Origin: a virus
Lineage: Duplodnaviria > Heunggongvirae > Uroviricota > Caudoviricetes
DNA: 38,183 nucleotides
IMG/VR virus record: IMGVR_UViG_2713896906_000008
Strand: one strand, 5' to 3'
The position numbers were made by a program, and so were the translations under genes. The stretch's first letter is position 1. Every line of letters starts with the position of its first letter. The notes beneath the pieces are model-generated. The model did not search any database. It was given only the letters and a program-made list of their open reading frames with translations, and was not told the origin of the DNA. Shown here piece after piece: positions 1,134-35,327 of the stretch.

Positions 1134-1664
1134 TTACCTTAATTTATCAAGCTCTCGTTTATTTCTTTTATCATGTATATCATTAAGAAATAATATATTA
1201 CTAGCAATGATACTAAATAACGCTATTATTTGTAGATATACTAATAACGCTGTGATAAAAAATCCAAACTTGCAGAACACGTGCTTATGCAAGGAAATGA
1301 AATCCAGATTTGAAAATATAGGTTTCGTTAAATTTATTATAACAATAGAAAATATTACAATAGCTGAAATTATAATGGTTTTCACTATCAGAGTAATTCG
1401 CTCAATATCTTTTTCTGTTTCCTTATGATAGTTTATACTAGTTATTGTTGATGGCTTTACAATTGAACTTACAGCTGCAGGGTAAATATATGCAAGCCAA
1501 ATACCTGCAATAGTGAAGATCATTGCAGAAATGTTTTGCAAGGTAGATAAAATATCTTTTATATCTGCATACGTATATTTATCTCCGAACAAATAAGCAA
1601 TAGCTATAATTGTTAGGAGAAAACATATGTGCAAAATTTTAGGTTTTATAATCATACTATGCAC
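1134..1664 (-). CDS. small inner-membrane protein with four predicted TM helices (cargo; RexB-like topology and position)
   Basis: 176-aa ORF with four hydrophobic segments; AT-rich; start overlaps stop of upstream 400-aa ORF (first ATG at 1655 lies 1 nt after the upstream TAG; track start 1664 is GTG). Confidence 0.6.
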   Translation of the reverse strand: MHSMIIKPKILHICFLLTIIAIAYLFGDKYTYADIKDILSTLQNISAMIFTIAGIWLAYIYPAAVSSIVKPSTITSINYHKETEKDIERITLIVKTIIISAIVIFSIVIINLTKPIFSNLDFISLHKHVFCKFGFFITALLVYLQIIALFSIIASNILFLNDIHDKRNKRELDKLR

Positions 1665-2859
1665 CTATTTTATGAATCTGCACTGTTGTATCATTATCAG
1701 CTTCTGGTTGTTCTATTATATCTTCATTTTTAAAACAATTCACCAAATCATTTCTATGAGCTTTTACTACACTCATTAAATATGAAGAAGAGTAATGTTT
1801 GTTTCTGTTAGAAAGGTCAACGTGAATTTCATGGCGATAAACATATTCATCTAACCAAGTAGTTGAACCATTTTTCCCATTTATTTTGAATCCGATGCGT
1901 GCGTGATCATTCCCTACATTCTCATTGTTGTTTTCTGTATCTTCTGAAATAGGATTGTGGTTTTCTATATATTCATCGATGAGTTTAGTGAACTCTTCAG
2001 GCGTAGGCGTTCCTTCGACTAATAATTCAACGCGATGTTTTTTTGATAAAATAGGAGAGCTTCTTGAGAAAACATCTCCAACTGCATCAAATAACTTCTG
2101 CCATTTTTCCCGTGTATCAGGTATGTTTGTTTCTATTACGTCATGGTAAACAATGTGAGTGATTTTTTTACACAGTTCTTCTATGTTTGCTCCACTCGTG
2201 ATCATCCTTGTTTGTTTAGTCTGTACTTTAAAAACTAAACTTTCATCATCACCTTGAGAAAAAAGAACACGTTTGTAATGAACGTCTTCAGGTGAGTCAT
2301 TACGAGGACGAGTCATATCTATGACTTTTTTATTAGGATGCTCCATCCTAAAGTCAACGTATGCTTTAATATAATGACAGAAAAGATCTGTATCCGTATT
2401 AGAACTTGGGAATCGTATGGATGCAATTTTGTTATATTCTGGAATTACCCAATAGTAGCAAGGTACGCCCCAGATATATTTACCGCCACCTTGAGTATCA
2501 GAGGCGGATACAACATTATCTGAAGTGCCGTCAATCTTACTTTCAGCATCTATACCTTGAATATTTCCAGAGTTATCACCGAGCGTTTTCCAGATAACAA
2601 ATAGATAATCTCCTGTCGTACTGTCATATGAAATATTTTTACAGTATGCTTTTGTTCTTCTATTATTATCCTTTCCCCATGGAACAGATTGTTCAACTGT
2701 TCTTGAACAGATCCAGCTATGTAAGTTACACAGAACATGGGATAAGTTCTTTTCGACTAATTCCGGCGATTTGCCTTGTCGTATTTTATAAAGGCCAAAC
2801 ATTTCTAAATCAAAAAATGTTATAATGCCGCGTTCAGTTTTAAAGTTGGTTTTACTCAT
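1657..2859 (-). CDS. hypothetical 400-aa soluble protein (cargo, co-oriented with cI)
   Basis: Long uninterrupted ORF in AT-rich island between cI and int; no motif recognised. Confidence 0.65.
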   Translation of the reverse strand: MSKTNFKTERGIITFFDLEMFGLYKIRQGKSPELVEKNLSHVLCNLHSWICSRTVEQSVPWGKDNNRRTKAYCKNISYDSTTGDYLFVIWKTLGDNSGNIQGIDAESKIDGTSDNVVSASDTQGGGKYIWGVPCYYWVIPEYNKIASIRFPSSNTDTDLFCHYIKAYVDFRMEHPNKKVIDMTRPRNDSPEDVHYKRVLFSQGDDESLVFKVQTKQTRMITSGANIEELCKKITHIVYHDVIETNIPDTREKWQKLFDAVGDVFSRSSPILSKKHRVELLVEGTPTPEEFTKLIDEYIENHNPISEDTENNNENVGNDHARIGFKINGKNGSTTWLDEYVYRHEIHVDLSNRNKHYSSSYLMSVVKAHRNDLVNCFKNEDIIEQPEADNDTTVQIHKIGA

Positions 2860-2939
2860 TGTTATTGCTTCTCTTCACCTTTTAAATCTTTCGCTTAATA
2901 TAATCACTTCTATTAGAATGACATTTGTTGAATGTCACT

Positions 2940-3821
2940 TTAATTCGAAATGATTGTGCTTCTTATGCATGCAACTACCTCGATATCAGAAAATGCACAT
3001 TCAAAGTAAGTTTCTTTACTTCTGATATTTATCATACCTTTAGGTAGCCTAGTAATTTGTCTGACGGAATAGGTTCCATCAATATTAATTAACCAGTATC
3101 CATCTAATACATCAGAAAATTTCTGATCACAGATGTATGCCACTAAACCATCCTGAACGACAATTGGTGCTGAAAGATTAGCGGGTAAAAATGACGAATC
3201 GAAAATATATGAGCCACTCTCAACCATTTTGCCTGCATTGAGATGAAATTTAGGCAGTTCTTTTACCGATGTTGTGAGAGCATTGTGCTCGCTGCCTTGT
3301 CCAGTGGCTAGCCATAAAAGAGAATTTCCTGTTTCCAACGAACATTTTATGATCCAATCAGCCGGGAATGTGTCTCGCAAATATCTATTTGCCATAGTGC
3401 TTTTAGATACATTCAGATGGTCGGCAAGTTCTTGTCTTGTTTTAAAGCCATACGCTTTCATTAGCCTGTCTATTGCATCACGTCCGCCTGAGTCCAAATT
3501 CAGATCGTTCCCAATTGGGGACTTCAGGGTGGTGGCTTGGGAAACGTGCTGAACCTTTGATGCAGTTGCCTTTGGCATGACCGGAGCCTCAGTACTCTGA
3601 GGGAATGGTACGCCTTTTCCGAATGAGAGCCACTCGATAGATGCACCCGTTTCAATTGCACACTGAATTACCCAGTCAGCAGGAAATACGTCACGCATCC
3701 AGCGCGTGCCCATAGTGCTTGCAGATACGTTGAACTGTTCGCACAGAGCTTGCCTTGTCTTGAATCCATACGCTTCAAGCATGCGCGTTATGACTGCTTG
3801 TCCTCCGTTTTTGAAATTCAT
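2940..3821 (-). CDS. cI: CI-type immunity repressor with tandemly duplicated N-terminal DNA-binding domain
   Basis: Two paralogous segments (LEAYGFKTRQALCEQFNVSASTMGTRWMRDVFPADWVIQCAIETGASIEWL and MKAYGFKTRQELADHLNVSKSTMANRYLRDTFPADWIIKCSLETGNSLLWL) resembling the 186 CI N-terminal domain, plus a C-terminal domain; divergent from apl/cII. Confidence 0.8.
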   Translation of the reverse strand: MNFKNGGQAVITRMLEAYGFKTRQALCEQFNVSASTMGTRWMRDVFPADWVIQCAIETGASIEWLSFGKGVPFPQSTEAPVMPKATASKVQHVSQATTLKSPIGNDLNLDSGGRDAIDRLMKAYGFKTRQELADHLNVSKSTMANRYLRDTFPADWIIKCSLETGNSLLWLATGQGSEHNALTTSVKELPKFHLNAGKMVESGSYIFDSSFLPANLSAPIVVQDGLVAYICDQKFSDVLDGYWLINIDGTYSVRQITRLPKGMINIRSKETYFECAFSDIEVVACIRSTIISN

Positions 3822-3847
3822 TTATTACGCCTTTGAGTAATTTTTGG

Positions 3848-3876
3848 TTGGCACTTCTCAAATGAAGAATTAGTGT
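3848..3876 (+). promoter_or_regulatory. candidate early lytic promoter (TTGGCA-N17-TAGTGT) in the cI-apl switch region
   Basis: -35/-10-like hexamers with 17-nt spacer about 70 nt upstream of the apl/cox-like start; P2/186 switch promoters are known to be face-to-face. Confidence 0.35.
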
Positions 3877-3946
3877 GTGCGAAAGTGAACTGAACAGGAT
3901 TAATCACCAGTTACCACACATCTTGTTAAACGAGGAATCTTGCATC

Positions 3947-4168
3947 ATGGCTCCACATATTTCAATCACCTTAGCTGTCCCATCTGTTTCTATTGAGAAA
4001 TACAGTGAACTGACTGGGTTATCTATCGATACTATCAATGACATGCTGGCTGATGGACGCCTTATTCGCCATCGTCTCCGTAAAGATAAAAAGCGAGAAA
4101 AGGTAATGATCAATATCGCAGCAATGACCGTTGATGCGCTCTCTGAATGCAATTTGAGTATTAACTAG
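3947..4168 (+). CDS. Cox/Apl-like excisionase/early repressor
   Basis: 73-aa ORF (from ATG 3947, GAGGA 10 nt upstream), first gene of the rightward early operon; HTH-like segment YSELTGLSIDTINDMLADGRL resembling P2 Cox. Confidence 0.55.
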   Translation: MAPHISITLAVPSVSIEKYSELTGLSIDTINDMLADGRLIRHRLRKDKKREKVMINIAAMTVDALSECNLSIN

Positions 4169-4200
4169 TTCCATTTTGGGATACATCAGGGGTGTCGACT

Positions 4201-4710
4201 ATGTTTGATTACCAAGTTTCCAAACATCCACATTTTGATGAAGCCTGCCGTGCATTTGCACTGCGCCACAATCTGGTGCAACTGGCAGAACGTGCAGGCA
4301 TGAATGTGCAGATTCTGCGGAACAAGCTGAACCCAGCTCAGCCTCATTTATTAACCGCACCAGAAATCTGGCTGCTTACCGATCTGACTGAAGATTCAAC
4401 GCTGGTAGATGGTTTTCTGGCACAGATTCACTGCCTGCCATGTGTACCGATTAATGAGGTGGCAAAAGAGAAACTGCCACATTACGTCATGAGTGCAACC
4501 GCAGAGATCGGGCGTGTTGCTGCAGGTGCGGTATCTGGCGATGTAAAAACCAGTGCAGGTCGTCGTGATGCTATCAGCAGCATTAACTCTGTTACACGAC
4601 TGATGGCGTTAGCTGCTGTTTCATTGCAGGCCCGTTTACAGGTTAATCCTGCGATGGCAAGTGCAGTTGATACTGTAACTGGCCTCGGTGCTTCATTCGG
4701 TTTGCTGTGA
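4201..4710 (+). CDS. cII: CII lysogeny-establishment activator (186 CII-like)
   Basis: [24 protein letters not shown]...[17 protein letters not shown]...[21 protein letters not shown] closely matches 186 CII as recalled; ATG 4201 preferred over GTG 4192. Confidence 0.85.
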
Positions 4711-6001: not shown

Positions 6002-6855
6002 GCACCATCCTGAAATGGGCGGGAAATAAAACCGCCATAATGTCCGAACTGAAAAAACACCTTCCTGCTGGCCCGCGACTGGTTGAACCTTTCGCGGGTT
6101 CCTGTGCTGTGATGATGGAGACGGATTATCCAAGCTATCTGGTTGCGGATATTAATCCTGATTTAATCAACCTCTATAAAAAGGTTGCCGCTGATTGTGA
6201 ATCGTTTATATCTCGCGCCAGAGTTTTATTTAAGGAAGCAAACAGGGAGGTGGCTTATTACAACATAAGGCAGGAGTTTAATTACTCAACTGAAATTACT
6301 GATTTCATGAAAGCGGTATATTTCCTGTATCTCAATCGTCACGGTTACCGTGGTTTATGTCGCTATAACAAGAGCGGGCATTTCAACATTCCCTACGGTA
6401 ATTATAAAAATCCGTATTTCCCTGAAAAAGAAATTCGCACATTTGCAGAAATGGCCCAGCGAGCAACGTTTATCTGCGCCAGCTTTGATGAAACGCTGGC
6501 GATGTTGAAGGCGGGGGATGTGGTGTATTGCGATCCGCCGTATGACGGTACGTTTTCCGGCTATCACACTGACGGCTTCACTGAAGATGACCAGTATCAC
6601 CTGGCATCTGTTCTTGAACATCGGTCATCAGAAGGACATCCGGTCATTGTTTCTAACAGTGACACATCCCTGATCCGTTCGCTGTATCGCAATTTTACTC
6701 ACCACTACATCAAGGCAAAACGCAGCATCGGTGTGGCAGCTGGCGAGGGTAAATCAGCAACAGAAATCATTGCTGTTTCCGGGCCGCGCTGCTGGGTGGG
6801 ATTTGATTATTCGCGTGGCGTGGACAGTTCTGCCGTGTACGGAGTACGTGCATGA
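5998..6855 (+). CDS. dam: DNA adenine methyltransferase (Dam-like, N6-adenine)
   Basis: [16 protein letters not shown] (AdoMet motif) and DPPY (catalytic motif); ATGA overlap with the TraR-like gene; frame start at ATG 5998 rather than track start 5938. Confidence 0.85.
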
Positions 6856-9266
6856 GTCATGCCGATATGAACAACTGCTGCGGCTTTAACGAGGCTGCCG
6901 CATCGTTCTCATGGAACAGCCCGAAAAAGGCCATTAACCCTTATCTGGACCCGGCGGAAGTTGCGCCGGTTTCTGCGCTTTCAAACCTGATCACTCTGTA
7001 CGCTGCCGATAACGAGCAGGAACAACTGCGCCGCGAGGCACTGAGTGATCAGGTCTGGGAGCGTTATTTCTTTAATGAATCCCGTGATCCTGTCCAGCGC
7101 GAAATGGAGCAGGATAAGCTCATTAGCCGGGCAAAGCTGGCGCATGAGCAGCAGCGTTTTAATCCAGACATGGTCATTCTGGCGGACGTCAACGCCCAGC
7201 CTTCCCATATCAGCAAGCCGCTGATGCAACGTATTAAATACTTCAGCAGCCTGGGCAGGCCAAAGGCTTATTCCCGCTATTTGCGTGAGACGATTAAGCC
7301 ATGCCTGGAACGACTGGAGCATGTGCGCGACAGTCAGCTATCCACTTCTTTTCGCTTTATGGCAAGCCATGAAGGGCTGGACGGCCTGCTAATCCTGCCT
7401 GAAATGAGTCAGGATCAGGTGAAACGCCTGTCCACCCTGGTAGCTGCGCATATGAGCATGTGCCTTGATGCAGCTTGTGGTGATTTGTACGCCACCGATG
7501 ATGTTAAGCCAGAAGAAATCCGCAAGACATGGGAAAAGGTGGCAGCAGAAACCCTGCGACTGGATGTTATCCCGCCTGCGTTTGAGCAACTTCGTCGGAA
7601 AAGAAACCGCCGTAAACCCGTGCCCTATGAACTCATTCCGGGGTCGCTGGCGCGTATGTTGTGCGCTGACTGGTGGTATCGGAAATTATGGAAGATGCGT
7701 TGCGAATGGCGGGAAGAGCAGTTGCGCGCTGTCTGCCTGGTTAGCAAAAAAGCATCACCTTATGTCAGCTATGAAGCCGTGATGCATAAACGTGAGCAGC
7801 GCCGTAAGTCGCTGGAGTTTTTCCGTTCTCATGAACTGGTGAACGAAGACGGCGACACGCTGGACATGGAGGGTGTGGTAAACGCCAGCAGCAGCAACCC
7901 TGCGCATCGCCGCAATGAGATGATGGCCTGTGTTAAAGGCCTGGAGCTTATCGCGGAAATGCGCGGTGACTGCGCCGTTTTCTACACCATCACCTGTCCG
8001 TCACGTTTCCATTCCACGCAAAATAACGGCAGGCCCAACCTGACCTGGACAAATGCGACGGTAAGACAAAGCAGTGATTATCTGGTCGGTATGTTTGCTG
8101 CATTTCGTAAGGCGATGCACAAAGCCGGATTGCGCTGGTATGGCGTGCGGGTGGCTGAGCCGCATCATGACGGTACAGTTCACTGGCACCTGTTGTGTTT
8201 TATGCGCAAAAAAGATCGTCGCGCCATTACTGCTTTGTTGCGTAAGTTTGCCATTCGTGAAGACCGAGAGGAGCTGGGGAATAACACGGGACCACGCTTT
8301 AAGTCTGAGTTGATTAACCCGCGCAAAGGAACGCCGACAAGCTACATCGCGAAATATATCAGCAAGAACATTGACGGGCGTGGTCTGGCTGGCGAGATCA
8401 GCAAGGAAACGGGTAAATCTCTGCGTGATAACGCTGAATACGTGAATGCCTGGGCGTCTTTGCATCGTGTTCAGCAATTCCGCTTCTTTGGCATTCCGGG
8501 GCGCCAGGCTTACCGTGAACTGCGATTGCTGGCTGGTCAGGCGGCAAGGCAACAGGGGGACAAAAAAGCAGGTACGCCGGTACTGGATAACCCGCGCCTT
8601 GATGCAATCCTGGCTGCTGCTGATGCTGGTTGTTTTGCCACTTACATCATGAAGCAGGGCGGCGTACTGGTTCCCCGCAAATATCACCTTATCAGAACAG
8701 CTTATGAAATTAACGAAGAGCCGACCGCCTATGGCGATCACGGTATTCGTATTTATGGCATCTGGTCACCCATTGCAGAGGGCAAGATCTGCACTCATGC
8801 AGTGAAGTGGAAAATGGTTCGTAAGGCCGTTGACGTTCAGGAGGCGGCAGCCGACCAGGGCGCTTGCGCCCCTTGGACTCGTGGCAATAACTGTCCCCTT
8901 GCTGAAAATTTGAACCAACAGGAGAAAGATAAATCAACAGATGGGGATACCAGAACTGACATTACCTGTATGGATGACAAGGAGTTGCACGATTACCTGC
9001 ATAGTATGAGCAAAAAAGAGCGCCAGGAACTGGCAGCAAGATTACGCCTGGTGAAACCGAAACGGCGTAAAGACTACAAACAGCGAATTACAGAGTATCA
9101 GCGTCAGCAGCTCGTCTATGAACTGAAGTCAAGAGGATTTGATGGCAGCGAGAAAGAGGTCGATTTACTCCTTCGCGGTGGCAGTATTCCGTCAGGAGCA
9201 GGCCTGCGTATCTTCTATCGGAACCAGCGTTTGCAGGAAGATGATAAGTGGCGGAACCTGTATTAA
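6852..9266 (+). CDS. A: rolling-circle replication initiator (P2 gpA family)
   Basis: 804 aa; HUH-like VHWHLLCF and paired-tyrosine motif [10 protein letters not shown]; ATGA overlap with dam. Confidence 0.9.
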
Positions 9267-9359: not shown

Positions 9360-9375
9360 CTGTAAATATAAACAG
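9360..9375. promoter_or_regulatory. LexA (SOS) box CTGTaaatataaACAG
   Basis: Near-consensus CTGT-N8-ACAG; preceded by TTTACA (-35-like) and followed by a strong SD and small ORF. Confidence 0.75.
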
Positions 9376-9418
9376 TGGTTGTGCATACAGTATTGCTTGT
9401 GGTGTCATAGGAGGAAAG

Positions 9419-9589
9419 ATGCAGGACTATTTTTTGGAGTCTTTGAAGCTCCAGCGCATTGATTTTTTTCTTAAGCTTGTAGCGGCTAGTGAGTGTAGTG
9501 ATGAAGAGAAGGGGCTGGCTCTGCAGTGGGTTTCTGAGTTGACTGATGAGCTGATGGCGAGAATTCGCGCTCATGAATACAACCACTAG
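9419..9589 (+). CDS. small SOS-controlled protein (56 aa), candidate antirepressor (Tum-like position)
   Basis: ATG preceded by GGAGGA 7 nt upstream, about 45 nt downstream of the LexA box; not in the ORF track because shorter than 60 aa. Confidence 0.5.
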   Translation: MQDYFLESLKLQRIDFFLKLVAASECSDEEKGLALQWVSELTDELMARIRAHEYNH

Positions 9590-21933: not shown

Positions 21934-23199
21934 TTAATGAGTTTTAAGTGCCTCTGTTAAAGATTTTCGATGATGTTCCCAAAAGGCAAAATCATTTACG
22001 TTTGAACTAAACCTCAAATGCTCTTCAGAATATATTGTTTCACGGTGATCGCATCCAAGAAGACATAGAATTAATCTGGTTAGATATATTGTTAAGTGTT
22101 CACAAGCAACTGCAATGTTTATCAAGTTGTCACTTGGTATAATTACACCATGTATAATTATATTTCTGATTTCAGAAAGTCCTAGCTTACCAGATTCATT
22201 AAATAATGGCCATAAGTCATGAGTATGGATTAAATGTTCTTTAAGAAATTCTTGTGTGGCATCTTTTAATGATATTCTATTCAGTTCTCCTAGTTTGCTT
22301 TTTATTTTTCCTCTAGTTGTTGAATCTTTGATAACGTCCTGGGTGATGACTCTTTCAATTGTTTGTCTTAATGATTTAAACTCGCTTTCACATAGAATGA
22401 AGGACGTATTGTTTTTTTCTTTATGAGTTAAGATAATAGATTCAAAAGATTGGAAAAGTGAAAGGTATCGAGACTCAAGATATTGGTTTGATGCATTGAG
22501 GACATTAATGGCTAATCGGATGTTCTGTCTGTAATGGGATGACAAATATGTGTGAAACATATTTTCAATATTTTCTTTGGCTTGTAATGGCATCATCAAG
22601 TGTTCTTTTTTGGTATCCTTAATAGGATTTTTTATCCTACAGCGAAAAACTGTATATACACCATCATTAGATTTTAGGTTCCAGTAACGACAAACTACTT
22701 TGTTACTATTGAGAAATGATAAGATATCATTAAATGCGTCAATTTTGTCAATGTAGTTATTTCTTACATCATCAATGGTTAAATTAGAGTTATTGGACTT
22801 TATTTTTAGGATTTGTTTTGTGCTGATTTCAAATTTTTCATTGCGCTCTAGTTTTGATTCGATATCTAATTTTATATCTTCGTTATTATTAAGTTTAACA
22901 ATAATAGGCTCTGATTTTGTAAGAGATATGTTACCATCCGAAGATGGATTGTACTGAATGTTAGGGGAGAGTAGTTGATGGTCACTGTTGTAGAATGTTA
23001 TTTCCGTATCCGGCGTATTATGTGCTTTATTATTTATAATGACTTCATTGGGAATGATGTTAAATGTATAGTGTTGAGTTTTTCCTGAGTGACAGTCGGC
23101 GATGTTTTCTATTCTACAATCGATTAGTTTTATCACTGAGCGAACATCACCATTTACATAATGAGTACAAAATTCAATGTCTAAATTATTTTTTTTCAT
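21934..23199 (-). CDS. hypothetical 421-aa cargo protein; possible C-terminal HEPN-like domain (Rx4H motif)
   Basis: AT-rich ORF between S and V; C-terminal alpha-rich region with SEIRNIIIHG (R-x4-H). Confidence 0.65.
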   Translation of the reverse strand: MKKNNLDIEFCTHYVNGDVRSVIKLIDCRIENIADCHSGKTQHYTFNIIPNEVIINNKAHNTPDTEITFYNSDHQLLSPNIQYNPSSDGNISLTKSEPIIVKLNNNEDIKLDIESKLERNEKFEISTKQILKIKSNNSNLTIDDVRNNYIDKIDAFNDILSFLNSNKVVCRYWNLKSNDGVYTVFRCRIKNPIKDTKKEHLMMPLQAKENIENMFHTYLSSHYRQNIRLAINVLNASNQYLESRYLSLFQSFESIILTHKEKNNTSFILCESEFKSLRQTIERVITQDVIKDSTTRGKIKSKLGELNRISLKDATQEFLKEHLIHTHDLWPLFNESGKLGLSEIRNIIIHGVIIPSDNLINIAVACEHLTIYLTRLILCLLGCDHRETIYSEEHLRFSSNVNDFAFWEHHRKSLTEALKTH

Positions 23200-35018: not shown

Positions 35019-35108
35019 TTCTTCGCAATGGAGAACTTTTAAGTTTGCGAAATGGAATAATGCGGTATCATTATTGTGATTTTAGCAAAAATGGGGAGAA
35101 CTCGAAAA

Positions 35109-35327
35109 ATGATGATTTGCCCACTGTGTGGAAGTGCCGCCCATACTCGCAGCAGTTTTCAGGTATCTTCATTGACTAAAGAGCGTTACAACCAGTGCCA
35201 GAATATTAACTGCAGCCATACTTTTGTAACCCATGAAACTTTTGTTCGTTCGATTGCAACGCCAAAAGAGTCAAATCCGGTTCAGCCGCATCCAATGAAA
35301 TCAGGACAGGTGGCGCTCTCTCTTTGA
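35109..35327 (+). CDS. ogr: late gene transcription activator, zinc-finger (P2 Ogr / 186 B family)
   Basis: MMICPLCGSAAHTRSS...ERYNQCQNINCSHTF matches Ogr CPLC...H...C.N.NC zinc-binding pattern; rightmost prophage gene. Confidence 0.85.
   Translation: MMICPLCGSAAHTRSSFQVSSLTKERYNQCQNINCSHTFVTHETFVRSIATPKESNPVQPHPMKSGQVALSL

What the first reader, a model, noticed from the sequence alone, without database searches (positions are those of the whole stretch)
2940..3821. Immunity repressor with a tandem duplication of its DNA-binding domain
The cI-like repressor is 293 aa rather than the ~190 aa of 186 CI because the N-terminal DNA-binding domain is present twice (about 60 percent identical copies separated by a flexible linker), followed by one C-terminal oligomerisation domain. 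A single-chain pseudo-dimer of DNA-binding domains would change operator geometry and possibly immunity specificity.
Basis: seen in the sequence. Interest (0 to 1): 0.5.

Follow-up and report, generated by a model that had tools for sequence, protein, structure and literature searches.

The report
Prophage repressor with two DNA-binding heads
The immunity repressor of this 186-like E. coli prophage carries two different DNA-binding domains on one oligomerisation domain. This layout is common in enterobacterial prophages but I found no study of it, and it looks like a way to build new or broader phage immunity rather than a simple duplication.

Summary
The ORF at 2940-3821 (-) encodes a 293-aa CI with two Phage_CI_repr HTH domains (aa 4-70 and 110-176, 54% identical, E 8e-32). 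A roughly 40-aa linker predicted to be disordered separates them, and one Phage_CI_C domain follows. It is not an artefact: 12 complete E. coli genomes carry it at 99% identity or more.

"Tandem duplication" is only partly right. D1 is 90% identical to the DNA-binding domain of a different single-domain CI lineage. Residues 95-293 form a complete 198-aa-type CI, with the remnant of its N-terminal tail still present.

The architecture is a family trait: 46 of the 120 best homologue clusters have it, and so do relatives at 40-45% identity. D1 has been exchanged among lineages.

In 23 of 24 single-domain relatives, the operator matching D2 (GTTCCC-N4-GGGGAC) lies at the lytic promoter pR. It lies there in 0 of 33 two-domain phages. 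In the window, a perfect copy sits inside cI, about 350 bp from pR. The operator type at pR follows D1.

Best reading: a bivalent repressor in which D1 represses pR, while D2 binds flanking sites and/or the pR of ancestral-type phages. A single-chain pseudo-dimer is not supported. DNA binding was not tested experimentally. I rate it a new variant of a known kind, of moderate interest.

The parts
2940..3821 (-). cI gene, 293 aa, a two-headed 186-type immunity repressor (RefSeq WP_001682733.1 in E. coli strain 1105)
3612..3812 (-). D1: distal PF07022 HTH domain (aa 4-70), recognition helix VSASTMGTRWMRD. It is 88-90% identical to the NTD of the single-domain CIs P0113, P0099 and P0100.
3495..3611 (-). 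Inter-domain linker (aa 71-109). aa 75-105 are predicted disordered and hypervariable among homologues. Its C-terminal part (ATTLKSPIGNDLNLDS) is the remnant of the N-terminal tail of a single-domain CI (MSTSKYPIGDELTFES).
3294..3494 (-). D2: proximal PF07022 HTH domain (aa 110-176), recognition helix VSKSTMANRYLRD, orthologous to the NTD of single-domain CIs
2967..3257 (-). PF16452 C-terminal oligomerisation domain (aa 189-285). The model superposes on the 186 CI CTD (2fkd) with TM 0.94 and rmsd 1.2 A.
3848..3876 (+). Inferred lytic promoter pR: -35 TTGGCA (3848-3853; TTGACA in relatives), 17-nt spacer, -10 TAGTGT (3871-3876). The layout is the same as the annotated 186 pR.
   Evidence: The consensus scanner did not call it.
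3824..3841 (.). Candidate operator O-up: a 7-4-7 inverted repeat, ATTACGC-CTTT-GAGTAAT, just upstream of the -35 and next to the cI start
   Evidence: Positionally homologous to the operator of the P0113-type phage.
3853..3870 (.). Candidate operator O-central: a 7-4-7 inverted repeat, ACTTCTC-AAAT-GAAGAAT, filling the pR -35/-10 spacer. It is identical in the L009 and L010 relatives. It is homologous to ACTTTCC-AAAT-GGAAAGT of the P0113-type phage and has the same geometry as 186 ATCTCTC-AATT-GGGAGAT.
3507..3522 (.). Perfect D2-type operator, GTTCCCAATTGGGGAC, inside cI at the linker/D2 junction, about 347 bp left of O-central (an FL-like position). It matches 15/16 the pR operator of 198-aa-CI phages (GTTCCCATTTGGGGAC).
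4167..4184 (.). Weaker D2-type site, AGTTCCATTTTGGGATAC, in the apl-cII gap, about 313 bp right of O-central (the position of 186 FR). It is also conserved in phages with other CI types, so the assignment is uncertain.
3947..4168 (+). apl (Cox-like excisionase/repressor, phrog_575), first gene of the rightward lytic operon
4201..4710 (+). cII (PF06892 Phage_CP76)
9360..9589 (+). The only perfect LexA box in the window (CTGTAAATATAAACAG, 9360-9375), followed by a 56-aa ORF (9419-9589, phrog_698). It sits at the place where 186 has p95-tum. Candidate SOS-controlled antirepressor acting on this CI. This link is inferred, not shown.

Best explanation
The gene encodes a 186-type CI immunity repressor in which a second, heterologous HTH domain (D1) is tethered by a roughly 40-residue disordered linker to the N-terminus of a complete single-domain CI (D2 + C-terminal domain). 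Each subunit therefore carries two different DNA-binding heads.

Shown: the architecture; its spread as a family trait; purifying selection on both heads; the different ancestry of D1 and of D2+CTD; the absence of the D2-type operator from pR in all two-headed phages examined; and the way the pR operator type follows D1.

Inferred, step 1: D1 pairs, from subunits dimerised through the CTD, bind two 18-bp inverted repeats. One lies in the -35/-10 spacer of pR and the other just upstream of the -35. Together they repress the lytic operon and define the phage's own immunity.

Inferred, step 2: D2 keeps the ancestral specificity (GTTCCC-N4-GGGGAC). It binds the perfect copy inside cI (3507-3522) and perhaps the weaker site in the apl-cII gap. 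These lie about 350 and 315 bp on either side of pR, like FL and FR of 186, so they could stabilise a looped or wrapped CI oligomer.

Inferred, step 3: the same D2 head could also repress the pR of superinfecting 198-aa-CI phages, which would give one-way cross-immunity.

Inferred, step 4: induction is probably by an SOS-controlled antirepressor rather than by self-cleavage.
For: Architecture.

Family trait: 46 of the 120 best 90%-identity clusters are 291-330 aa and all have two HTH domains. 37 of the best 150 50%-identity representatives have two or more HTH stretches. That includes relatives at 40-45% identity with PF07022 x2 + PF16452.

Both heads are functional: for window versus L010, D1 has dS 0.33 and dN 0.006, and D2 has dS 0.46 and dN 0.05. 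D1 versus the P0113 NTD has saturated synonymous sites but pN 0.064.

Mosaic origin.

D2-type operator: it lies in the cI-apl spacer with 2 or fewer mismatches in 23/24 distinct single-domain loci and in 0/33 two-domain loci. The two-domain loci show 4-6 mismatches, which equals the shuffled background (Fisher p 4.5e-15). The window has a 0-mismatch copy at 3507-3522; 0 of 3000 shuffles of the gene reach this.

pR tracks D1, case 1: the window's pR aligns with that of the P0113-type phage. That phage has four exact ACTTTCC half-sites, all at pR and in the same 7-4-7 layout with 29 bp between operator centres.

pR tracks D1, case 2: L093 has a D1 helix like that of 186 CI, and pR operators CTCAC-N5-GTGAG like the 186 FL/FR sites TTCAC-N5-GTGAA.

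pR tracks D1, case 3: main-clade two-headed CIs share one pR whichever D2 helix they carry. That pR resembles those of single-domain phages with a Q-type helix.

Antirepressor and cleavage: no Peptidase_S24 match. LexA box plus small ORF at the tum position.
Against: No DNA binding was measured, so all operator assignments rest on sequence comparison.

The window's pR repeats are imperfect. O-central has 5/7 symmetric positions and O-up 6/7, and neither is statistically compelling alone (one search is circular).

The window's D1 has the same recognition helix as P0113 apart from one residue (A versus T), yet the half-sites differ at 2-4 of 7 positions.

D1 and pR are adjacent on the DNA, so inheriting them together could be mere linkage.

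The internal D2-type site is inherited from the 5' end of a single-domain cI and is degenerate in the closest relatives (L009 GTTCCCAATAGGGTTC, L010 GTTCACAATTGGGTTC). It may therefore be a relic.

The FR-like sequence is conserved across phages with different CI types and may serve pE or cII expression instead.

186 CI recognises two operator geometries with a single head (annotated sites). One head could therefore do everything here too.

The loci in the Fisher test are phylogenetically related.
Confidence: 0.55

Rival explanations
1. Single-chain pseudo-dimer. D1 and D2 of the same polypeptide sit side by side on the two half-sites of one operator, so a monomer does what a dimer of 186 CI NTDs does.
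For: There are two homologous HTH domains in one chain joined by a flexible linker long enough to allow it. Engineered single-chain 434 and Arc repressors work this way (own knowledge).
Against: The candidate operators are inverted repeats of one half-site type each. The pR repeats contain no GTTCCC-type half-site, and the 3507-3522 site is a symmetric D2-type repeat. The oligomerising CTD is kept intact. D1 is exchanged between lineages independently of D2, which would break a co-adapted hybrid operator.
Confidence: 0.08
2. Only D1 binds DNA. D2 is a conserved but non-binding spacer or structural module left from the ancestral single-domain CI, for example needed for CTD packing or as a docking site for the antirepressor. 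The D2-type sites are relics.
For: The D2-type operator is gone from pR in all 33 two-headed loci. The internal site is degenerate in L009, L010 and many other lineages. The FR-like sequence is conserved whatever the CI type.
Against: The D2 recognition helix is identical to that of many single-domain CIs that must bind DNA. D2 is under purifying selection with omega about 0.1. The window's internal site is a perfect operator, better than its homologue in single-domain phages, which has 2-3 mismatches.
Confidence: 0.17
3. D2 is the working head, as in single-domain CIs. D1 is an accessory: a decoy that soaks up antirepressor, or a head devoted only to repressing heteroimmune competitors.
For: D2+CTD alone is a complete CI. 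D1 is on a long flexible tether. D1 is closely related to the head of another immunity group.
Against: There is no D2-type operator in the window's pR-pL region, where the best match has 4 mismatches, equal to background. pR is homologous to that of the D1-related lineage. Across lineages the pR type follows D1 and not D2.
Confidence: 0.12
4. The extra domain is an artefact: an assembly duplication, a fused annotation of two genes, or a decaying pseudogene.
For: None was found. One relative (L018/P0106, Dryocola) does carry a frameshifted copy.
Against: It is one uninterrupted ORF. The copies are 61% identical in DNA. The gene is identical or near-identical in 12 complete genomes and 2 viral contigs. 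Dozens of diverged full-length homologues exist. Both domains are under strong purifying selection.
Confidence: 0.01

Closest known systems
Coliphage 186 CI repressor (PDB 2FJR/2FKD; PF07022 + PF16452)
   Same: The same two Pfam families. The top sequence and fold match is 2fjr (E 2.4e-27 by sequence, 3.6e-18 by Foldseek), and the CTD superposes on 2fkd with TM 0.94. The gene position (int-cI facing apl-cII) and the pR layout, with an inverted repeat filling the -35/-10 spacer, are also the same. Candidate flanking sites lie about 300-350 bp on either side, like FL and FR.
   Different: 186 CI has one HTH head per subunit (192 aa) and uses it for both operator geometries. Here there are two different heads per subunit, so a 14-mer wheel, if it forms, would carry 28. 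The linker is about 40 aa and disordered. The operator sequences differ. No Tum homologue is present.
Single-domain CIs of related enterobacterial P2/186-like prophages: the 198-aa type (P0005, phage vB_EcoM-813R9, Klebsiella phage KP12) and the 206-aa P0113 type
   Same: aa 95-293 of the window protein is 73% identical over the full length to P0005. D1 is 90% identical to the P0113 NTD. The P0113-type prophage uses the same att site between rcdA and ybjL.
   Different: Those proteins have one head each, and their cognate operator sits at their own pR. The window protein combines both kinds of head, with a pR related to the P0113-type one but diverged from it.
Engineered single-chain repressors (covalently linked 434 or Arc DNA-binding domains)
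   Same: Two homologous DNA-binding domains in one polypeptide joined by a flexible linker (own knowledge for the engineered proteins; for this one).
   Different: The engineered proteins lack an oligomerisation domain and place both domains on one operator. Here the CTD is retained, and the operator candidates are homotypic inverted repeats, which argues for pairing between chains.
Lambda CI / LexA-type self-cleaving repressors (HTH + Peptidase_S24)
   Same: N-terminal HTH plus a C-terminal beta-rich oligomerisation domain, with distant fold similarity of the CTD to LexA and lambda CI CTDs. One distant relative, P0234, even has PF07022 x2 + Peptidase_S24.
   Different: The window protein has no Peptidase_S24 match. 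Induction is expected through an antirepressor, not RecA-stimulated cleavage.

Membership tests
186-type CI repressor (Phage_CI_repr + Phage_CI_C) | N-terminal PF07022 helix-turn-helix domain | tested here: met
   PF07022 E 4.6e-59, in two copies at aa 4-70 and 110-176
186-type CI repressor (Phage_CI_repr + Phage_CI_C) | C-terminal PF16452 oligomerisation domain with the 186 CI CTD fold | tested here: met
   PF16452 E 1.2e-25 at aa 189-285. The AF2 model versus 2fkd gives TM 0.94 and rmsd 1.2 A.
186-type CI repressor (Phage_CI_repr + Phage_CI_C) | First gene of the leftward lysogenic operon (cI-int), facing apl-cII across the pR/pL switch of a P2/186-like prophage | tested here: met
   int 1-1053, cI 2940-3821, apl 3947-4168, cII 4201-4710, replication gene 6852-9266 and Ogr 35076-35327. 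Two cargo genes lie between int and cI.
186-type CI repressor (Phage_CI_repr + Phage_CI_C) | One DNA-binding domain per subunit (about 190 aa) | tested here: not met
   Two HTH domains, 293 aa. 186 CI aligns only to aa 114-284.
186-type CI repressor (Phage_CI_repr + Phage_CI_C) | Inverted-repeat operators at pR plus flanking FL/FR sites | tested here: inconclusive
   Candidates lie at 3824-3841, 3853-3870, 3507-3522 and 4167-4184. They are supported by homology and comparative patterns but not by binding data.
186-type CI repressor (Phage_CI_repr + Phage_CI_C) | Assembly into a wheel of seven dimers | not testable with these tools
   Only a monomer model could be made. The wheel is described for 186 CI in bioRxiv 10.1101/2021.10.29.466366.
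186-type CI repressor (Phage_CI_repr + Phage_CI_C) | Inactivation by the SOS-induced antirepressor Tum | tested here: inconclusive
   A LexA box at 9360-9375 and a 56-aa ORF lie at the syntenic place. The ORF shows no BLASTP similarity to 186 Tum.
Single-chain pseudo-dimeric repressor | Both domains of one chain occupy the two half-sites of one operator (hybrid half-sites expected when the domains differ) | tested here: not met
   Each operator candidate is an inverted repeat of one half-site type. No site combines a D1-type half with a D2-type half. This is sequence inference only.
LexA / lambda CI self-cleaving repressors | Peptidase_S24 catalytic C-terminal domain | tested here: not met
   No PF00717 match at E up to 1. 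There is only distant fold similarity to LexA CTDs.

The most novel reading that the evidence does not exclude
Two-headed CIs are a general, modular immunity device of enterobacterial 186-like phages. The distal head and the adjacent pR operator cassette are swapped together between lineages to create a new immunity type. The proximal head keeps the ancestral specificity. The phage thus escapes repression by ancestral-type prophages while its own repressor still shuts down ancestral-type superinfecting phages. This is asymmetric cross-immunity. The proximal head also supplies the flanking-site contacts for looping or wrapping.
Probability: 0.3. Interest if true: 0.7.

Novelty: new variant of a known kind. 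Interest (0 to 1): 0.45.

Why it matters
186 CI is a model system for cooperative, DNA-wrapping repression. How its single head reads two operator geometries has been under study since the 1990s (own knowledge). A natural relative with two distinct heads per subunit splits recognition between modules, so it offers a way to test which contacts drive promoter repression and which drive looping or wrapping.

If D2 still recognises ancestral-type operators, these repressors would give one-way cross-immunity between prophages. That would be a simple route to competitive exclusion and to new immunity groups, and it bears on prophage ecology in E. coli, Salmonella and Klebsiella.

The repressors are also natural templates for bivalent synthetic repressors.

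The architecture is common in databases, where it is labelled only 'phage repressor protein CI'. I found no paper describing it.

Tried and rejected
(1) Assembly or annotation artefact: rejected.

(2) Recent duplication within this gene: rejected. D1 is closer to single-domain NTDs of another lineage (90%) than to its own D2 (55%) or to any other lineage's D1 (below 70%). Synonymous sites between D1 and D2 are saturated.

(3) The consensus promoter/terminator scan over 3700-4250 found nothing. pR was instead placed by homology to relatives (TTGACA-17-TAGTGT/TAATGT) and by the 186 annotation.

(4) A generic repeat search of 3300-4400 gave many short chance pairs. Only the comparison with related phages made sense of them.

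(5) A strict 7-mer inverted-repeat tabulation across loci missed the 6-4-6 operators. It was replaced by a mismatch scan against GTTCCC-N4-GGGGAC.

(6) I looked for P0113-type half-sites (ACTTTCC) at the window's pR and found none. The window's D1-type half-sites have therefore diverged.

(7) A candidate CI site at the ogr promoter (TTCTTCGCAATGGAGAA, 35019-35035) is the only match in the window (expected 0.27). Its spacing is one base longer than at pR, so I left it as uncertain.

(8) A pattern built from the two pR repeats finds no further copies near the switch. This test is circular.

(9) The 56-aa ORF after the LexA box has no similarity to 186 Tum and no Pfam or PADLOC hit.

(10) An internal start at Met82 (GAGG 8 nt upstream) could give a D2+CTD isoform. 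The Met is absent from P0003, so I did not pursue it.

(11) Literature searches for tandem-HTH 186-type CI, PF07022 and single-chain natural phage repressors returned nothing relevant.

(12) The scan of one genome per species returned mostly single-domain CIs, with only 2 two-domain loci out of 80. The IMG/VR scan supplied the two-domain loci.
Full report
**What is there**

The window is a 186/P2-like prophage of E. coli. Reading from the left, it has int (1-1053, -), two cargo genes, cI (2940-3821, -), apl (3947-4168), cII (4201-4710), a fil-region, DUF5347, DUF2732, a DksA-like gene, Dam, the replication endonuclease (6852-9266), the late genes and Ogr (35076-35327). The host genes ybjL and grxA follow at the right end. 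In E. coli strain 1105 the same prophage lies next to rcdA.

The cI ORF encodes 293 aa. Pfam finds Phage_CI_repr (PF07022) twice and Phage_CI_C (PF16452) once. A domain HMM places the two HTH copies at aa 4-70 (D1) and 110-176 (D2). The copies are 54% identical over 70 aa, with E 8e-32, and 61% identical in DNA.

186 CI (2fjr) aligns only to aa 114-284. An AlphaFold2 model built on 44 homologues has mean pLDDT 82.6. It shows two five-helix domains with pLDDT about 90, a linker (aa 75-105) with pLDDT below 50, and a beta-rich C-terminal domain. That domain superposes on the 186 CI CTD with TM 0.94.

An artefact is excluded. The gene is present at 99% identity or more in 12 complete E. coli genomes, and 18 genomes in all hold at least 80% of the 1.5-kb query. 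It is 100% identical on two IMG/VR contigs.

**It is a family trait, not a one-off**

Of the 120 best 90%-identity clusters, 46 are 291-330 aa and every one has two HTH domains. The other 74 are 186-229 aa, and all but one of them have a single domain. That one, P0106, is a frameshifted two-domain copy. The two-domain clusters come from E. coli, Salmonella, Klebsiella, Citrobacter, Enterobacter, Kosakonia and Edwardsiella. The sources name them only 'phage repressor protein CI'.

About 20 deposited Klebsiella phage genomes among the 40 listed phage records carry one, as shown by single-piece matches covering about aa 6-293.

I also searched 1.84 billion representatives with D2 alone. Only 224 proteins matched at E 1e-3 or better. 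Of the best 150, 37 have two or more HTH stretches. These include proteins only 40-45% identical that also have PF07022 x2 + PF16452, and one with PF07022 x2 + Peptidase_S24.

I found no paper describing this architecture. The 2011 survey of P2-like regulatory genes looked at 18 CI proteins and mentions only longer linkers or longer C-terminal domains (PMC3448106).

**Origin: a heterologous head added to a complete CI**

D2 groups with the NTDs of single-domain CIs (mean 76% identity). D1 does not form one group. The window's D1, together with those of P0002 and P0003, is 88-90% identical to the NTD of the single-domain 206-aa CIs P0113, P0099 and P0100. It is below 70% identical to every other lineage's D1 and 55% to its own D2. 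Other two-domain lineages have D1s that pair with other single-domain groups.

Residues 95-293 align end to end with the 198-aa CI P0005 at 73% identity. The linker segment ATTLKSPIGNDLNLDSGG is the counterpart of the single-domain N-terminus MSTSKYPIGDELTFESGG. The DNA alignment runs up to the single-domain start codon.

Segment by segment, the best DNA match of D1 is the P0113-type phage (79%). The best match of the CTD is the P0005-type phage (80%). cII is 95-96% identical to other two-domain phages.

Both heads are under purifying selection. For window versus L010, D1 has dS 0.33 and dN 0.006, and D2 has dS 0.46 and dN 0.05. Between D1 and the P0113 NTD, synonymous sites are saturated but pN is 0.064. 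So 'tandem duplication' describes the architecture, not the recent history. D1 behaves as an exchangeable module.

**Operators**

The 186 record annotates three CI sites at pR, including ATCTCTC-AATT-GGGAGAT between the -35 and the -10. It also annotates the flanking sites FL and FR (TTCAC-N5-GTGAA), about 305 bp left and 373 bp right of pR.

The P0113-type phage has four exact ACTTTCC half-sites, all within 57 bp at pR and none elsewhere in 6.6 kb. One pair forms ACTTTCC-AAAT-GGAAAGT between TTGACA and the -10.

The window's cI-apl spacer aligns with that region. At the homologous places it has ATTACGC-CTTT-GAGTAAT (3824-3841) and ACTTCTC-AAAT-GAAGAAT (3853-3870). The second repeat lies between -35 TTGGCA and -10 TAGTGT. 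The centres of the two repeats are 29 bp apart, as in the P0113-type phage and in L093. Among the two-headed relatives, L009 keeps both repeats unchanged. L010 keeps the second unchanged and has one change in the first.

Single-domain phages with a D2-like head have a different operator at pR, GTTCCC-N4-GGGGAC. It is identical in prophages from three genera.

I scanned 143 loci for this operator. It lies in the spacer with 2 or fewer mismatches in 23 of 24 distinct 197/198-aa loci. It lies there in 0 of 33 two-domain loci. The two-domain loci show 4-6 mismatches, which is the shuffled background. Fisher p is 4.5e-15, with the caveat that the loci are related.

Two-domain phages do keep a copy at the linker/D2 junction, inherited from the 5' end of the single-domain gene. 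In the window this copy is perfect: GTTCCCAATTGGGGAC at 3507-3522. None of 3000 shuffles of the gene reaches zero mismatches. It matches the single-domain pR operator at 15 of 16 positions.

A weaker relative, AGTTCCATTTTGGGATAC, lies in the apl-cII gap at 4167-4184. The two sites lie about 347 bp left and 313 bp right of the pR operator, which corresponds to the positions of 186 FL and FR.

**The operator type at pR follows D1**

Three further comparisons point the same way.

- L093 has a D1 helix (SSSTLANRYTRD) resembling that of 186 CI (SSSSLSNRYTRG). Its pR operators, CTCAC-N5-GTGAG, resemble the 186 FL/FR sites.
- L094 has a D1 84% identical to the L022/L061-type NTD. Its cI-proximal spacer is homologous to theirs.
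- The large clade with D1 helix ISQSTMANRYARD shares one pR (TTGACA..TATTCT..TTTTGTGAAG..GTCACGA) whether D2 carries ISKSTLATRYMRD or VSKSTLANRYLRD. That pR resembles those of single-domain phages with a Q-type helix.

**Mechanism proposed**

Shown: two intact, selected heads of different ancestry on one oligomerisation domain; loss of the D2-type operator from pR; and a pR type that correlates with D1.

Inferred, step 1: D1 pairs repress pR and set the phage's own immunity.

Inferred, step 2: D2 binds the flanking D2-type site or sites. This would help a CI oligomer loop or wrap DNA, as FL and FR do for the 186 wheel of seven dimers (bioRxiv 10.1101/2021.10.29.466366).

Inferred, step 3: D2 may also repress the pR of superinfecting 198-aa-type phages.

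Weak points:
- No binding data exist.
- The pR repeats are imperfect.
- D1 and pR are adjacent on the DNA, so their co-inheritance could be linkage alone.
- The internal site is degenerate in the closest relatives.
- The FR-like sequence is conserved across CI types.

**Induction**

CI has no Peptidase_S24 domain. The only perfect LexA box in the window (9360-9375) precedes a 56-aa ORF (phrog_698), at the place where 186 has p95-tum. The ORF is not similar to Tum. An SOS-controlled antirepressor is therefore likely but unproven.

**Verdict**

The protein belongs to the 186 CI family by domains, fold and context. It fails the 'one head per subunit' feature.

It is best filed as a new variant of a known kind: common in databases, with no description that I could find. 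Interest is moderate (0.45). A specialist would find the modular two-head design and the operator partition worth testing, but domain addition to a repressor is not in itself surprising.

Noticed in passing
window 1134-2859 (- strand): The two ORFs between int and cI (176 aa, predicted membrane protein; 400 aa) match both components of the PADLOC candidate defence system PDC-M18 (B: E 5e-24; A: E 2e-36) and have no Pfam family. Other relatives carry different cargo at the same spot: GmrSD_N + HEPN in L092, an AAA ATPase + DUF4276 in L009, and SNIPE/T5orf172 in L006. The int-cI gap therefore looks like a defence-gene hotspot.
   Followed up: partly
window 9754-11936 (+ strand): Downstream of the replication gene lie an Rv2179c-like 3'-5' exonuclease (9754-10308), a HipA_C-like kinase (10324-11235) and a HIRAN-domain protein (11232-11936). 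The last two match both components of PADLOC candidate system PDC-M03 (E 4e-36 each).
   Followed up: partly
window 9360-9589: The single perfect LexA box in the window (CTGTAAATATAAACAG) lies 44 bp upstream of a 56-aa ORF (phrog_698, function unknown) with a good RBS. This is the position of 186 p95-tum, but the ORF has no similarity to Tum. It is a possible new small SOS-controlled antirepressor.
   Followed up: partly
window 21934-23199 (- strand): A 421-aa ORF lies on the opposite strand in the middle of the late (lysis/tail) genes. It has no Pfam or PADLOC match and is probably another cargo gene.
   Followed up: no
window 12834-13484 (- strand): A 216-aa ORF with predicted transmembrane segments (phrog_36961, unknown function) lies between the early region and the portal/terminase genes. 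An AT-rich stretch encoding a proline-rich 63-aa ORF (12582-12773) sits next to it.
   Followed up: no
window 35019-35035: The inverted repeat TTCTTCGCAATGGAGAA lies just upstream of the Ogr/Delta late activator gene. It is the only match in the window (0.27 expected). It resembles the pR half-sites but has a spacer one base longer. It may be a CI site at the late-activator promoter, like 186 pB.
   Followed up: partly
window 3576-3578 (- strand; Met82 of CI): There is an in-frame ATG with GAGG 8 nt upstream, inside the linker. Initiation there would yield a 212-aa D2+CTD protein resembling a single-domain CI. The Met is not conserved in P0003.
   Followed up: partly
window 35563-38183, and L011 1-1197: The prophage is inserted between rcdA (ybjK) and ybjL. 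ybjL (35563-37248) and grxA (37926-38183) are at the right end of the window. The P0113-type single-domain prophage uses the same site (L001).
   Followed up: partly
L018 (Dryocola sp. BD586), cI at about 2432-3370: A two-domain cI carries a frameshift in the C-terminal domain (protein P0106, 229 aa, both HTH domains but no PF16452). This is a decaying copy, or a naturally truncated two-head protein.
   Followed up: no
proteins P0234, P0235, P0224, P0195: Distant relatives show other multi-HTH layouts. P0234 has PF07022 x2 + Peptidase_S24. P0235, P0195 and P0224 have four, five and seven matched HTH stretches. Only P0235 (HTH_3 x4) and P0195 (no HTH family reported) were scanned with Pfam. Stringing several HTH heads in one chain recurs beyond the 186-type CTD.
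   Followed up: no
L092, L095, L016, L129-L153: first about 60 nt of cI: Main-clade two-domain CIs have a conserved 18-aa N-terminal extension (MSxxKNTFRHxxD..). Its coding DNA contains a conserved inverted repeat (CACATGGCGAAATGTG) just upstream of the pR -35, which overlaps the cI start codon. This is probably an operator embedded in coding sequence.
   Followed up: partly
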